Origin: Raja brachyura
Lineage: Eukaryota
Length of the DNA: 64,000 nucleotides
Direction: 5' to 3'
Assembly: GCA_963514005.1 (NCBI GenBank)
Contig: OY740787.1
Span: forward strand, 69,378,001 to 69,442,000
Each line of letters opens with the position of its first letter. Position 1 is the first letter of the stretch. The position numbers and the translations under genes are program-made. This document shows positions 12,892 to 31,540 of the stretch, one piece after another. The notes under the pieces were generated by a model. The model had not been told where the DNA came from. It did no database searches and was given only the letters and a program-made list of their open reading frames with translations.

Positions 12892-12981
12892 GTAAAAATA
12901 TGGTTCCAAAACCAACGACAAAAAGAGAAAAAACTTCTTCGTGTGCACCAAACGACGCATCCAAGTTGCCTTGGCCTGTAA
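12892..12981 (+). CDS. hoxd14: HoxD14 exon 3 (helix 3 and stop)
   Basis: Acceptor ttttcag|. Encodes VKIWFQNQRQKEKKLLRVHQTTHPSCLGL*. WFQNQR and the intron inside the homeobox are PG14 hallmarks. Confidence 0.93.
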   Translation, partial: VKIWFQNQRQKEKKLLRVHQTTHPSCLGL

Positions 12982-13631
12982 AATGGAACACCTTTACTCA
13001 AAGAAAGCAGTTTACAAAATATTGTTTCCAGCATGTCATGCTCAAAACCTCTCTTCAGATAAACACAAACCTAAACCATTCATCGTGCAGCTGCATTTTC
13101 ATGTATTTTACACAACTGCCCACATGAAAAAGTTATATTTAACCATAATATAAGATTTACCGTTCATTTTGCATTGAACACTATTTACAGGTTGGCTTTG
13201 TTAAACATAGGAAACGAGGAATAATAACATCATCATTTTAGTTCTTAATATCATGATATTCCGCATGATTTTCAAATATATATATTATCTCGAAACTATT
13301 AATTTTAACATGTATATGACTCTTTAGAGTGAGATAATTGCTTTTCTGAGGGTTATGTTTTGTATTAAAATGATTTTGTCAATAAAGGTTGAAGAAGAAG
13401 TTACAGATGAATGTTTGAAAAAATTAATTTTTTTATTTTCAAATTTAAAATAATTTGAAACATTGAATATGTAAAGTAATTCAATGTACTAACATGTATT
13501 TTAATAAAATTGCCAGCTTTGTACAGGCGCTATATTGCAGTTGATTTACATTCGAAACAGTGTTTTTTCCTCTTTCAAACAAAATGCAATATGTACAAAA
13601 CAGAATTTATTGGTTGAGGACAAAAGTGGCT

Positions 13632-14925
13632 NNNNNNNNNNNNNNNNNNNNNNNNNNNNNNNNNNNNNNNNNNNNNNNNNNNNNNNNNNNNNNNNNNNNN
13701 NNNNNNNNNNNNNNNNNNNNNNNNNNNNNNNNNNNNNNNNNNNNNNNNNNNNNNNNNNNNNNNNNNNNNNNNNNNNNNNNNNNNNNNNNNNNCGCACCCA
13801 GCCCCTCCTGCCTGTGTCCCAGCCTGCCTCCCTCCCTGCCTCCCAGCNNNNNNNNNNNNNNNNNNNNNNNNNNNNNNNNNNNNNNNNNNNNNNNNNNNNN
13901 NNNNNNNNNNNNNNNNNNNNNNNNNNNNNNNNNNNNNNNNNNNNNNNNNNNNNNNNNNNNNNNNNNNNNNNNNNNNNNNNNNNNNNNNNNNNNNNNNNNN
14001 NNNNNNNNNNNNNNNNNNNNNNNNNNNNNNNNNNNNNNNNNNNNNNNNNNNNNNNNNNNNNNNNNNNNNNNNNNNNNNNNNNNNNNNNNNNNNNNNNCGC
14101 ACCCAGCCCCTCCTGCCTGTGTCCCAGCCTGCCTCCCTCCCTGCCTCCCAGCNNNNNNNNNNNNNNNNNNNNNNNNNNNNNNNNNNNNNNNNNNNNNNNN
14201 NNNNNNNNNNNNNNNNNNNNNNNNNNNNNNNNNNNNNNNNNNNNNNNNNNNNNNNNNNNNNNNNNNNNNNNNNNNNNNNNNNNNNNNNNNNNNNNNNNNN
14301 NNNNNNNNNNNNNNNNNNNNNNNNNNNNNNNNNNNNNNNNNNNNNNNNNNNNNNNNNNNNNNNNNNNNNNNNNACCCCCTGCCTGGCCTNNNNNNNNNNN
14401 NNNNNNNNNNNNNNNNNNNNNNNNNNNNNNNNNNNNNNNNNNNNNNNNNNNNNNNNNNNNNNNNNNNNNNNNNNNNNNNNNNNNNNNNNNNNNNNNNNNN
14501 NNNNNNNNNNNNNNNNNNNNNNNNNNNNNNNNNNNNNNNNNNNNNNNNNNNNNNCGCACCCAGCCCCTCCTGCCTGTGTCCCAGCCTGCCTCCCTCCCTG
14601 CCTCCCAGCNNNNNNNNNNNNNNNNNNNNNNNNNNNNNNNNNNNNNNNNNNNNNNNNNNNNNNNNNNNNNNNNNNNNNNNNNNNNNNNNNNNNNNNNNNN
14701 NNNNNNNNNNNNNNNNNNNNNNNNNNNNNNNNNNNNNNNNNNNNNNNNNNNNNNNNNNNNNNNNNNNNNNNNNNNNNNNNNNNNNNNNNNNNNNNNNNNN
14801 NNNNNNNNNNNNNNNNNNNNNNNNNNNNNNNNNNNNNNNNNNNNNNNNNNNNNNNNNNNNNNNNNNNNNNNNNNNNNNNNNNNNNNNNNNNNNNNNNNNN
14901 NNNNNNNNNNNNNNNNNNNNNNNNN
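13632..14925. repeat. Mostly N-masked C-rich minisatellite / low-complexity array
   Basis: An identical 55-nt unit CGCACCCAGCCCCTCCTGCCTGTGTCCCAGCCTGCCTCCCTCCCTGCCTCCCAGC is visible at 13793, 14098 and 14555 between N runs. Confidence 0.75.
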
Positions 14926-15069
14926 CTTGTCTGTCTGTCTACATAATGCTCAACGTTAGAGAATCAAACATCGTTTCGATTATGTTTCTCGTGTCTTTAT
15001 TTCTGAATTACGATGCAAAAAATAACACCAAGGATTAAATTTAAGTTGAAGCACTATATTCAGATACCT

Positions 15070-15189
15070 AAGGTAGACAAAATGCTGGAGTAACTCAGCG
15101 GGTCAGGCAGCATCTCTGAAGAGATGGAATGGGTGACCATTCTTGAGAATATTCCGGTCCTTCTTCAGAATATATTCTTCAGAATATTC
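15070..15189 (-). mobile_element. Rearranged PLE-like repeat copy with 14-bp flanking direct repeat
   Basis: Family core GCTGGAGTAACTCAGCGGG...GGAATGGGTGAC; ATATTCAGATACCT at 15056-15069 and 15190-15203. Confidence 0.8.
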
Positions 15190-15451
15190 ATATTCAGATA
15201 CCTGTTACATGTACTCAAATAAAAACTTAGAGAGATAGTAATCTTCGCATTAATCAGAAAGAACACAGATCGTTATTCGCCAATTAAACCGGAATCACTT
15301 GTCATGCGGCACCGTTTTCAAATGTATGACTAAAGGTCTAGCCAACAAAACACTTCATGAGCAATGACTGCCATACCGGGTCATCTTTTATGTGGAGCAG
15401 ATAATTTGTAAACACTGTCGTCCTACCGTTGAACAGTATTGTCGAATGAAT

Positions 15452-15550
15452 GAAGACACAGTGCAGATGCTAGAATCTTGAGCAAAACACAAAGTTCTGG
15501 AAGAACTTAGTAGGTCAGGATTAGTGGAGGACAAGCATTGGCGACGGTTC
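15452..15550 (-). mobile_element. Older, degenerate relative of the same repeat family
   Basis: TGCAGATGCTAGAATC...ACACAAAGTTCTGGAAGAACTTAGTAGGTCAGG aligns loosely to TGCAGATGCTG...ACACAAAGTGCTGGAGTAACTCAGCGGGTCAGG. Confidence 0.55.
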
Positions 15551-15635
15551 TGCTTGGGTAACTTTCCGATTGTCTTTAACTATGGATGCGCGTTTGGTTG
15601 CATGTATTTATGTAAGCATATACGTATGTATGCGT

Positions 15636-15738
15636 CGAAGGTAGACACAAAGTGCTGGAGTAACTCAGCGGGACAGGCAGCATTTCCGGAGAGAAGGGAT
15701 GGGTGACGTTTCGGGTCGAGACCCTTCTTCAGACTGAT
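15636..15738 (-). mobile_element. PLE-like repeat copy with intact hammerhead-like core
   Basis: - strand AGT-CTGAAGA-A-GGGT-CTCG-ACCC-GAAA-CGTC-ACCCAT (core 15705-15732). Confidence 0.85.
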
Positions 15739-15870
15739 GTATAAATGCGTCTGCCTTTCTGCTTGTTTAGCAGGCTATCAGCGTGTCAATCTATTCAATT
15801 TCGAAGTCTGCTTCATGTTGAGTTCTGCCTTGAGCATTTGGTATTCTTTACATATTTTCAGCTTTATGTA

Positions 15871-16037
15871 AAGGGTCTCAACCCGATACGTCACCCATTC
15901 CTTCTCTCCAGAGATGCTGTGTGTCCCGCTGACTTACTTCAGGAAGAAGGGTCTCGACCCGAAACGTCACCCATTTTTCCTCTCCAGGGATGCTGCATGT
16001 CCCGCTGAGTTACTCCAGCATTTTATGTCCACCTTCG
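15871..16037 (+). mobile_element. Tandem dimer of the PLE-like repeat, inverted relative to the 15636 copy
   Basis: AAGGGTCTCAACCCGATACGTCACCC at 15871 and AAGGGTCTCGACCCGAAACGTCACCC at 15947 (76-nt offset). Confidence 0.85.
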
Positions 16038-16380
16038 CTTTATGTTAATTCGCTCGCTGATTTCCGAATAAAAAGTATACTTTCAATTTGTGTTTAGGTG
16101 GGACTTCAGTTCATAGGATATTATTGTGATTCTGCTCAGTATTATTTAACCCACTACACTAACGGCTGAATGTTTCACATGCTATGTTATATTCGATTAG
16201 AATGGATATTGATCATTATTCTATAACAAAGGAGTGATCAGCCTAATCCTCCACGTGCAATCAAATTATTTCATTAATACCTGTGGATTTATTTTCTGAT
16301 TGTGCTATCTGTTCTCTGAAATGTTACTTTTCGACTGTCGCGGTGTTTTCTCTCTTTCTCTCTCTCCATGTATTGTGACA

Positions 16381-16533
16381 TTGAGGTACTTTTAGATAGG
16401 AACACGATGTGCAGGGAATGGAACGGTGTGCATCACGTGCAGGCGGAGGATAATAGTTTAATTTAGCATCATTATTTGCGAGGACATTATGGGCCGAAAG
16501 GCCGGTTCCTGTGCTACACTGTTTTATATTCTA
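16381..16533 (+). mobile_element. 5'-truncated CR1/HER1-type LINE 3' end
   Basis: TTTTAGATAGG...GCAGGGAATGG...GGACATTATGGGCCGAAAGGCCGGTTCCTGTGCT. Shares the GGGCCGAAnGGCC 3' stem-loop with the SINE tail near 10010. Confidence 0.7.
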
Positions 16534-17462
16534 CGTGTTATTTAATGTCATGACTGTGTCAAAATCTTTTTTTTTAAACGATAAAGGATGTTGGCACCTG
16601 AATAATCCGTTCACATTTGTACTTGGAGTCTTTCCGCACACCTATTTTGCTTATGTCAGATAGTTTTGACTTTGTTATGTCTTTGGTTCGACGTTTAATA
16701 CCAACTGCAAAAGGTACAAATGGCCAAAAAGGTCATGGCCAGCAGACCCCCAGAGGAACAAACCCATCATTGTATCATTTGTCAGCGAAGAGCTTCCTTA
16801 CTGACGAAAAATAAACATGTCACCTCTTTTTTCGTCCTTTCATGGCATTCAAAATACCCGTCTGGAATTTGGTTACAACTTAACTTCGAATTGATGCCAT
16901 TGTATCTTGTGCATCTGCCTGAGTGGGCTGATGGGATTCCAGTTCAACCTCTCATTTGAAAGACGCTACTTCTGACAATGTAGCACATCGTCGACACGGT
17001 ACTAGAACATCAAACTAAAATGTTGTGCTCCAATGTAAGGAAGTTGTAGGAATCGATATTCTGCGAATGTGCGCGTCGAGATGTCTTAACTGCAATGCGC
17101 AAGATCACAGAAATTTGGGCTTAATTTGGTCTTAATTTAATTTTATCACCACATCCCAATATTTGCTGTGCATTAGCAGAGGGCCGTTTTTACAGATAGA
17201 TAAAACGGTACAATAATCAAAGAGAAACGCACTCCTCATTAGCTAATTACAATTAGATTCATTTGAATCAATGCTTGTCAGATGAAATCACCTTCAAATG
17301 CATTACACAGGATTAAAGGTTCCATCTCAAATGCCATTTGATTAAAAGGTACATAAAGCACCCAATTTCACTTAACAAATCAAGTCACAAAATACATTAT
17401 ATTTTGGTGTCATCTTTTTGCGCAGAGCAGATTATCCAAGACCATTATAGTCCGAAAATGAA

Positions 17463-17710
17463 GATACAAGGAATGGCAGATGGTGGAATTCTGCGTAGAA
17501 CAGAAAGTACTGGAGTAACTGCACAGGTCAGGCAACATACATGGAGAACATGGATATGTGAGGTTTCGGGACGGGGCTCATCTTTAGACAGTCTGAAGAT
17601 GGGTCCAGACACGAAATAGTGCGAAGAAGGATACCGACCAGAAACGTCACCTATCTATGTTCTCCGGAGATACTGCCTGGCCCGCTGATTTACTCCAGCA
17701 CTTTGTGTCT
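17463..17710. mobile_element. Diverged inverted pair of the PLE-like repeat
   Basis: - strand arm to about 17590, then + strand GTCTGAAGATGGGTCCAGACACGAAA and GAAGAAGGATACCGACCAGAAACGTCACC...CCCGCTGATTTACTCCAGCACTTTGTGTCT. Confidence 0.75.
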
Positions 17711-29865: not shown

Positions 29866-30445
29866 ATGTGCGAGCACAATCTGCTAAATTCAGGCTATGT
29901 CGGCTCCCTGTTAAATTTTGCCAGCCCGGAGCCTTTCTACTTTCCCAACCTGCGTCCGAATGCGGCTCAACTGGCAAGTCTGTCACCCGCACTCTCTTAC
30001 ACCCGCCGGGAGGTGTGCTCGCTCCCGTGGACTTCGAGTCCATGCGCATCGCCGCCGCAGAGCCGCGCCTTCAGCGGCTACTCTCAGTCCTATCTCAGCA
30101 ATTCTGTCTCCATCAGCATCAATAGGCATGGATCAGACAAAGCAGCGGCCGGCGAAGAGCCCACCAAATACTACTTCCAAGACAGCAGCCGAAAACTGGA
30201 GGAGAGATGCAGACACAGTCAGTCCTATCCAAGTGAAACCAGTATCCCTTCTTCAGTCAATATCAACCCTGCTAAGTACGAGTACCCAAACGTGGAAACA
30301 TCTCTCCATGGCTCCTCCTTACATAATCAAGGCTTTGAATTGAATTCCAACTCTCCCTCTGTAAATGAAGGCGTCAAGCAATGCGTGAGCCTCAATATGT
30401 CATTACAGTCACCAGTAACGCCAGTGTGCAACAGATCCTCTGATG
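29866..30445 (+). CDS. hoxd12: HoxD12 exon 1
   Basis: MCEHNLLNSGYVGSLLNFASPEPFYFPNLRPN is a PG12 N-terminus. Donor GATG|GTACAG, phase 1. Confidence 0.96.
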
Positions 30446-30937
30446 GTACAGTATCAGTGCAGTATTAAAACGATAACCGTTTGAAACAAAAATGTGGTAT
30501 CCGTCCTCGTTCAAAGTGCTACCTGTCATCTTCATTTGTTGAACATCGGTGATCTTGGAACAAATATGCTTAAAGCAATCAAAATCACCATGAAATAATT
30601 ATTGTAATTACATTACGAGATAATACAAACGTAGATCAAACCATAGGTGATAACTAGTTATTGCACCTAAAGCGTATAATTACAACGTCGTTTTTTTTTA
30701 AACTTTAAACGTTAGTCAACTTAAACGACAAAGAGAACATAGCATATACCTGATTTTGTTTTGTAATTTTATTTGGAGGCCAAAAAAAATCAAAAGATCT
30801 CTTTGTTATGATTTAAATTAGTTAGTTTTTGTACGTTGACGATGACAGAATATTTAGATGATCGGATGCCTTGTTTAAATATTTGTGTTTATTCTATTTG
30901 TCTTGGGGAATACTTAAACTGCTTCGCAGCGTTGACT

Positions 30938-31169
30938 GTTACACAAAAAGCTGGAGAAACTCAGCGGGTGCAGCAGCATCTAAGGAGCGAAGACTGTTGT
31001 TTGTATGATTAAAGGCCAGCAAAGTAAAGAATATGGTATCGAATAATAACCAAATTATGAATCGTGCAAAAGAGTCTGAAGAAGGGTCTCGACCCGAAAC
31101 GCCGCCTATCTCCTTCGCTCCTTAGATGCTGCTGCACCCGCTGAGTTTCTCCAGCTTTTTGTGTAACCC
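30938..31169. mobile_element. Inverted pair of PLE-like repeat copies inside the HoxD12 intron
   Basis: 30938-30992 and 31113-31167 are perfect 55/55 reverse complements. The right copy is flanked by TATGAATCGTGCAA (31056-31069, 31170-31183). Confidence 0.9.
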
Positions 31170-31301
31170 TATGAATCGTGCAATGTTGACAATGTTAGCG
31201 CGCGAACTAACAGACACATTAAAGTATCGACTAGCTTGCGATGATAACGTGGGTAAAGTGCGACAATGTTTTCAACGTTTTTTTCCAATTTCGATTTGCA
31301 G

Positions 31302-31540
31302 GGCTCTCCTGGTGCCCGACCCAAGTGAGGTCAAGGAGGAAACGCAAGCCATACACAAAGCAACAGATAGCTGAACTTGAAAATGAATTCCTCGCGAACG
31401 AGTTTATCAACCGACAGAAGAGAAAGGAATTGTCTGACAGGCTAAACCTGAGCGACCAACAAGTCAAAATTTGGTTTCAAAACCGGCGCATGAAAAAGAA
31501 AAGACTTATTATGCGCGAACAAACGCTATCACTCTTTTAG
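31302..31540 (+). CDS. hoxd12: HoxD12 exon 2 (homeobox)
   Basis: Acceptor ttgcag|. Encodes [68 protein letters not shown]. Confidence 0.97.

What the first reader, a model, noticed from the sequence alone, without database searches (positions are those of the whole stretch)
30934..31183. Perfect 55-bp inverted repeat with TSDs inside the HoxD12 intron
Seen: arms 30938-30992 and 31113-31167 are 55/55 complementary around a 120-nt loop and end about 135 nt before the splice acceptor. The arms share private variants (TAAGGAGCGAAG, GGTGCAGCAG) not found in the other copies in this window. Each arm has its own flanking direct repeat: GACTGTT (30934, 30992) and TATGAATCGTGCAA (31056, 31170). The hammerhead-like motif lies in sense orientation in the pre-mRNA. 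Inference: a very recent coupled insertion or gene conversion, creating a dsRNA hairpin that could affect splicing or attract ADAR/Dicer. TE insertions in Hox introns are rare in gnathostomes.
Basis: partly seen in the sequence, partly recalled or inferred. Interest (0 to 1): 0.7.

Follow-up and report, generated by a model that had tools for sequence, protein, structure and literature searches.

The report
Two retroelement scraps in HoxD12 intron
The hairpin in this cartilaginous fish's HoxD12 intron is two short, oppositely facing scraps of a Penelope-type jumping gene that has tens of thousands of identical copies in the genome; they are missing in three related species, likely landed separately, and are probably close to harmless.

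Summary
The inverted repeat, both target-site duplications and the HoxD12 intron are real. Three related species carry the empty left site; in two, one contig spans both empty sites with the exact length predicted. The interpretation mostly fails. The arms are the terminal-repeat end of a Penelope-like retrotransposon. The exact 55-mer occurs 24,993 times in this genome, so the 'private variants' are subfamily markers and perfect identity shows neither recency nor gene conversion. Head-to-head pairs number 3,567. Those made in one event have a single outer duplication, and 44 of 45 carry exactly one tail. This pair has two inner duplications, no tail and native DNA between, like chance neighbours; two separate insertions are likelier (about 0.55) than one coupled event (0.3). 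The hammerhead is a lone minimal motif whose cleavage triplet is mutated, so it is probably inactive. One residual oddity: the sense copy adds the most pyrimidine-rich AG of the intron, and the antisense copy is predicted to bury it. No RNA evidence was available. The scan noted head-to-head Penelope units before in other genomes.

The parts
29866..30445 (+). HoxD12 exon 1 (coding part)
30446..31301 (+). HoxD12 intron, GT-AG, 856 nt; 172 nt of it are the two insertions
30934..30940 (+). First copy of the left target-site duplication GACTGTT; the last 3 letters double as the element's 3' end
   Evidence: joint 30933 to 30992 skips 58, 7 letters fit both sides
30938..30992 (-). Left insertion: 5'-truncated antisense copy of the Penelope-like terminal repeat, no hammerhead, no tail
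30992..30998 (+). Second copy of the left target-site duplication
30999..31055 (+). Native intron DNA, 57 nt, present in place in relatives
31056..31069 (+). First copy of the right target-site duplication TATGAATCGTGCAA
31070..31169 (+). Right insertion: 3 extra letters plus a 97-nt sense copy of the terminal repeat, no tail
31076..31103 (+). Minimal hammerhead motif (CUGAAGA, possible 4-bp stem II, GAAA); the cleavage triplet reads GCC where the family majority reads GUC (position 31102)
   Evidence: motif read by eye against PMC4209133
31106..31125 (+). Pyrimidine tract and TAG brought in by the right copy: acceptor-like, mostly inside the predicted stem
31140..31154 (+). Second acceptor-like CAG brought in by the right copy, inside the predicted stem
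31170..31183 (+). Second copy of the right target-site duplication
31302..31540 (+). HoxD12 exon 2 (homeodomain, to the stop codon)

Best explanation
Two short copies of the terminal repeat of an abundant Penelope-like retrotransposon sit head to head 57 native bases apart in the HoxD12 intron, each with its own target-site duplication and absent from related species; they likely inserted in two separate events and are probably close to neutral. Inferred mechanism: each time, the element's GIY-YIG nuclease nicked the intron and its reverse transcriptase copied from the inner start site of the terminal repeat. The right copy ran to the usual 5' end (97 nt); the left one stopped after about 55 nt. 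The arms match because both came from the same majority template. The pre-mRNA would fold into a 55-bp stem that loops out about 230 nt, may be edited by ADAR, and is then spliced out. The true acceptor and the candidate branch sites lie outside the stem.
For: Empty sites: in organisms B and C one contig has exactly 64 letters between window 30933 and 31170, against 236 here, which is what two removals of 58 and 114 nt predict. In B and D the contigs skip 58 letters at the left site and the middle piece stops at 31069. Family: 58,074 exact copies of a 16-mer of the arm, 24,993 of the whole 55-mer. Longer copies run upstream into a frame whose 42 homologues mostly carry reverse transcriptase (PF00078) and several GIY-YIG (PF01541) domains. 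One-event units look different: of 75 spaced head-to-head pairs examined, 45 have a single outer duplication of 10 or more letters, and 44 of those 45 have exactly one tail (33 of 33; 11 of 12). Pairs with two separate duplications were 3 to 5 of 49 and 3 to 6 of 26. Scaled to the 599 pairs of that distance band this is about 37 to 61, where uniform chance gives 61 and the tail-to-tail control gives 146 in a similar band. In the three unselected pairs made of two single arms (L038, L068, L164) the arms carry different subfamily letters, so they arose separately. HoxD12 is intact. Predicted accessibility of the true acceptor is unchanged by the left arm (0.52 against 0.50).
Against: These are the only two hits of the family between 18 kb and 64 kb of the window (one masked stretch at 52719-52889 cannot be read), so two separate landings 57 bases apart is a real coincidence. 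Both arms are of the same subfamily, which one coupled event predicts better. Both fall on the same branch, with no one-copy allele seen. The chance expectation is rough: long copies cannot sit this close head to head, which lowers it, and my samples are small (4 of 49 scales to 14-117 pairs), so a coupled class of up to a few dozen pairs is not excluded. Neutrality is inferred, not measured.
Confidence: 0.55

Rival explanations
1. One coupled event: a dimeric element complex, or two complexes loaded at the same open site, primed both DNA strands 57 bases apart from the same kind of RNA, and each end was resolved on its own, leaving two duplications. Still probably neutral.
For: Head-to-head pairs are about 47 times the uniform expectation (3,567 against 75). 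The related anole protein nicks and extends both strands in vitro and is modelled as a dimer (PMC11167929). The arms are identical, both are confined to species A, and the region is otherwise free of the family. Two similar same-subfamily pairs exist (L100, L106), though the search pattern selected for that.
Against: The family's one-event units have one outer duplication and one tail (44 of 45); this pair has neither. Four nicks are needed. Two-duplication pairs are not clearly above chance, and the three unselected examples are of mixed subfamilies. With tail-less ends on both arms, head-to-head matches number 21, of which about 3 to 4 distinct events are of this kind, against 15 tail-to-tail.
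Confidence: 0.3
2. Compensation: the sense copy came first and was mildly harmful because it adds acceptor-like sites upstream of the real one; the antisense copy was kept because it pairs with and hides them.
For: Of 43 AG sites scored in the intron, the one at 31125 inside the right copy has the highest pyrimidine content (0.88 against 0.71 for the true acceptor). Predicted unpaired probability of its tract drops from 0.56 to 0.18 with the left arm, and from 0.41 to 0.00 for the CAG at 31154. Read from the sequence, use of the first shifts the frame and use of the second meets a stop before the homeodomain. Opposite-facing intronic Alus can change splicing (PMC2533698, abstract).
Against: No consensus branch site (YTNAY) lies between 31001 and either decoy; the two found are downstream of the hairpin. 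The pyrimidine score is crude. Any antisense copy of this family would cover these sites by construction. The order of insertion is unknown.
Confidence: 0.06
3. Gene conversion between two older copies made the arms identical.
For: 55 of 55 identity.
Against: Both arms equal the majority sequence, found in 43% of 16-mer-bearing copies. No shared private change exists to be explained. 8 of the first 15 head-to-head loci also have 0 mismatches over these 55 letters.
Confidence: 0.03
4. Assembly artefact at a repeat.
For: Perfect inverted repeats of Penelope-like elements are known to trouble assemblies (PMC8557442).
Against: Both outer junctions are in run contigs of species A with 0 differences (X1: 30400-30961 and 31147-31500; X2 and X10 for the left junction), although sample S1 may be the assembly's source. 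The duplications match the empty allele of relatives to the base.
Confidence: 0.03

Closest known systems
Endonuclease-positive Penelope-like elements with C-terminal GIY-YIG, likely the Neptune clade (PMC8557442)
   Same: Reverse transcriptase followed by GIY-YIG, a CX4CxxC linker, a terminal repeat with a minimal hammerhead, heavy 5' truncation, inverted copies and an optional tail of about 35 nt at one end.
   Different: The paper describes the inverted copy as immediately adjacent to the 5' end. Here 57 native bases and two separate duplications lie between the copies, and neither has a tail. Clade placement was not tested with a tree.
Poseidon element of the green anole, PAc (PMC11167929)
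   Same: Two internal reverse-transcription start sites with the tail between them; copies here end at two fixed places about 35 nt apart.
   Different: Poseidon lacks the CX2-5CxxC linker (PMC8557442). Nothing biochemical was tested for this family.
Minimal hammerheads of metazoan Penelope-like elements (PMC4209133)
   Same: CUGANGA and GAAA boxes, an extra base before stem II, no real stem III; pairs on opposite strands 100-700 bp apart were noted in Schistosoma.
   Different: This copy has GCC instead of GUC at the cleavage triplet, and the left copy lacks the motif, so no dimer can form within the intron.
Inverted intronic Alu pairs (PMC2533698)
   Same: Two retroelement copies in opposite orientation in one intron that can base-pair upstream of an exon.
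   Different: The stem here is 55 bp, not about 300 (Alu length recalled), and the downstream exon is the terminal exon of a two-exon gene, so it cannot be skipped as a cassette. No splicing or editing data.

Membership tests
EN+ Penelope-like element (parent family) | Reverse transcriptase followed by a C-terminal GIY-YIG endonuclease upstream of the terminal repeat | tested here: met
   2 of 6 longer copies gave open stretches over 200 aa that read as RT and endonuclease. The L130 frame hits GIY-YIG weakly (E 0.0035, below the curated cut-off) and the L128 frame hits no Pfam family. 42 homologues, most with PF00078 and several with PF01541.
EN+ Penelope-like element (parent family) | [quoted passage not shown] | tested here: met
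   Read by eye in the L130 frame against the definition in PMC8557442.
EN+ Penelope-like element (parent family) | Tail of 30-40 bp at one end only; inverted 5'-truncated copies | tested here: met
   44 of 45 single-duplication units carry exactly one tail; 3,567 head-to-head pairs.
Neptune clade | CX2-5CxxC linker between RT and endonuclease | tested here: met
   CX4CxxC read by eye in L130; the motif is shared with Nematis.
Neptune clade | Placement in an RT phylogeny | not tested
   No tree was built.
Canonical one-event inverted Penelope unit (this locus) | Inverted copy adjoining the 5' end, one duplication around the whole unit, one tail | tested here: not met
   Two inner duplications, native spacer, no tail.
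Active minimal hammerhead (this copy) | Conserved core boxes and stem II | tested here: inconclusive
   Boxes present by eye. The lowest-energy fold does not show the 4-bp stem closing a 4-nt loop. No Rfam hit at gathering score anywhere in the window.
Active minimal hammerhead (this copy) | NUH cleavage triplet | tested here: not met
   GCC here; 149 exact 42-mers with GCC against 23,832 with GTC. The NUH rule was later widened to NHH (PMC3884650), so slow cleavage is not excluded.
Active minimal hammerhead (this copy) | A second motif in tandem to form the dimer; self-cleavage | tested here: not met
   The left copy starts downstream of the motif; single motifs showed no cleavage in PMC4209133. 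Cleavage itself cannot be assayed here.
Regulatory intronic duplex (inverted-Alu type) | Pairing in vivo shown by editing, and a change in splicing | not testable with these tools
   Only folding predictions.

The most novel reading that the evidence does not exclude
One transposon insertion rescued another inside a Hox gene: the sense copy planted a decoy splice acceptor with a stronger pyrimidine tract than the real HoxD12 acceptor, and the antisense copy fixed because it folds back and hides it.
Probability: 0.06. Interest if true: 0.65.

Novelty: new member of a known kind. Interest (0 to 1): 0.2.

Why it matters
As it stands it is a tidy species-level marker and an example of retroelement insertions tolerated in a Hox intron. 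Hox clusters are generally, not absolutely, poor in transposons (PMC3091776 passages; PMC6791295 abstract). It does not show a new mechanism: perfect hairpins of this very sequence are common in this genome. It would matter if the antisense copy masks a decoy acceptor, because that would be a clean, testable case of compensatory insertion in a developmental gene. The family-wide side result, one tail per one-event unit, is of more general use for the Penelope mechanism than the locus itself.

Tried and rejected
Rfam scan of the whole window at gathering scores: 0 matches. In runs X2 and X10 of species A no contig covers 31012-31075; the tool states that a hole proves nothing, so the two inner junctions rest on the assembly and on the fit to the empty allele. 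The right junction was seen only in sample S1. Paper searches for Penelope + hammerhead + inverted + shark and hammerhead ribozyme + Penelope + cartilaginous found 0 papers; one search listed none that describes this family in title or abstract start. The library lacks most subscription papers and Repbase or Dfam were not available, so the family may well be catalogued. No supplements were read. A direct genome count of perfect 55-bp pairs was not obtained; the estimate rests on 8 of 15 and 15 of 49 sampled pairs. The idea that the spacer was copied in from elsewhere by template switching, as in several one-event units (for example L032, L056, L080), was rejected because the spacer lies in place in relatives. 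Small-RNA mapping as a test was set aside: the arm is identical to about 25,000 other places. Look-ups of earlier findings by sequence and by place returned nothing.

Full report
Observation. The inverted repeat is as described: arms 30938-30992 and 31113-31167, 55 of 55, 120 nt apart, far more stable than shuffles. Both direct repeats are in place. The host gene is HoxD12: exon 1 is 91% identical to a shark Hox-D12a, exon 2 is a homeodomain, and the frame is open for 273 aa across a GT-AG intron at 30446-31301. Homeobox motifs elsewhere in the window run in the order expected for a posterior HoxD cluster (the group names are my recalled reading of the motifs). The organism is a cartilaginous fish by these homologues; I did not identify it further.

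What the arms are. The 100-nt right insert matches 36 other places at 100% over 96-98 nt among the 40 candidates scored of 1,174. A 16-mer of the arm occurs 58,074 times and the full 55-mer 24,993 times. Many copies continue upstream into a shared body. Of 6 such copies followed for 6 kb, 2 gave open stretches over 200 aa that read as reverse transcriptase and GIY-YIG endonuclease. Pfam supports the endonuclease only weakly and gives nothing for the other piece, but the 42 longer homologues mostly carry PF00078 and several PF01541. With the CX4CxxC linker and the cysteines inside GIY-YIG (defined in PMC8557442, passages), this is an endonuclease-positive Penelope-like element, likely of the Neptune clade.

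Empty site. In runs of organisms B and C a single contig covers 30400-30933 and 31170-31500 with exactly 64 letters between, against 236 in the window. Removing 58 and 114 nt gives 64. In B and D the contig skips 58 letters at the left site, the middle piece aligns with 1 difference each, and it stops at 31069. In B the record coordinates together show one copy of the 14-mer. So both duplications are true and the 57-nt spacer is native. Species A and B differ at 7 of about 865 flanking letters plus 2 gaps. The insertions are younger than that split. The left junction is in two samples of A and the right junction in one, which may be the assembly's source. The right copy differs from the family majority at 31102. 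Identity over 55 letters is what such an age predicts.

One event or two. Head-to-head pairs of the 16-mer at 60-300 nt number 3,567, tail-to-tail 146, and uniform chance gives 75. Inverted units are therefore a normal product of this family, as described for Penelope-like elements (PMC8557442, passages). I classified the first 49 distinct places of 599 with a gap of 105-300 and 26 further places of 258 with a gap of 190-300. Forty-five have one outer duplication of 10 or more letters, and 44 of these have a tail of about 35 nt on exactly one arm. That fits the two internal start sites found in vitro for the anole element (PMC11167929, first half of the text). The HoxD12 pair has no tail and two inner duplications, so it is not such a unit. 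Pairs with separate duplications were 3 to 5 of 49 and 3 to 6 of 26; 19 of the 75 showed no clear duplication and stay unclassified. Scaled up, the first sample gives about 37 to 61 pairs, near the uniform figure of 61 and below the tail-to-tail count, with wide limits. The three unselected pairs of two single arms have arms of different subfamilies. Against this, the family has no other hit between 18 and 64 kb, both arms are of one subfamily, and the expectation is rough. I put separate insertions at about 0.6 in all (0.55 neutral, 0.06 compensated) and one coupled event at 0.3.

Function. The hammerhead is of the minimal kind, which needs a tandem partner and did not cleave as a single motif in vitro (PMC4209133, first half of the text). 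The left copy lacks the motif. The cleavage triplet is GCC, seen in 149 exact 42-mers against 23,832 with GTC; NUH is the rule, later widened to NHH (PMC3884650, passages). It is probably inactive. The stem ends 134 nt before the acceptor; the true tract and the two YTNAY sites lie outside it, and the tract's predicted accessibility does not change. From general knowledge a 55-bp nuclear duplex is a plausible ADAR substrate, but editing of an excised intron need have no effect, and perfect pairs of this sequence are common here (8 of the first 15 head-to-head loci). The one locus-specific lead is that the sense copy brings the most pyrimidine-rich AG of the intron and a second CAG, both predicted to be buried by the antisense copy. 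No consensus branch site serves them, so I give compensation 0.06.

Comparison and verdict. The structure is made of known parts of a known kind of element. Transposons are generally depleted in vertebrate Hox clusters, with known exceptions (PMC3091776, passages; PMC6791295, abstract and opening), so a tolerated intronic insertion is uncommon but not unprecedented. Opposite-facing intronic Alus can alter splicing (PMC2533698, abstract), which is the precedent for the novel case. Two searches found no paper on this family's hammerhead in cartilaginous fishes, within a limited library. Interest 0.2; new member of a known kind.

Noticed in passing
L032-L091 and L142-L167 (head-to-head units genome-wide): 44 of 45 single-duplication inverted units carry the tail on exactly one arm, which suggests the two DNA strands are primed at the two different start sites of the RNA.
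   Followed up: partly
same loci; window 31073: 68 of 98 arms begin within a few bases of the same point just upstream of the hammerhead, as if reverse transcription ran off a fixed RNA 5' end. The commonest unit joins the two arms through a 7-letter near-palindrome at that point.
   Followed up: no
L007-L030, just upstream of the hammerhead: Longer copies have a pyrimidine-rich stretch, a CTGAC and a CAG directly before the motif, the place where the Drosophila Penelope intron ends according to PMC4209133. It may be the element's own 3' splice site.
   Followed up: no
window 9243-17708: Eleven older copies of related subfamilies (67-85% identical to the right insert), several as head-to-head pairs, cluster upstream of the homeobox at 24.4 kb. 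Masked stretches at 13632-14925 lie among them.
   Followed up: partly
L032, L039, L056, L080, L083, L088: Inverted units enclose 109-218 nt of non-element DNA, often with short fold-backs at the joins; the piece in L039 looks like 5S rRNA-derived sequence (recalled, not tested).
   Followed up: no
L092, L095, L097, L102, L123, L126: One composite locus with several nested insertions recurs on six contigs, so it has been multiplied as part of a larger repeat.
   Followed up: no
L107-L121: Among 15 tail-to-tail pairs the spacers cluster (164, 165, 164; 220, 220; 20, 20); in L111 both copies appear to share one duplication. May be chance.
   Followed up: no
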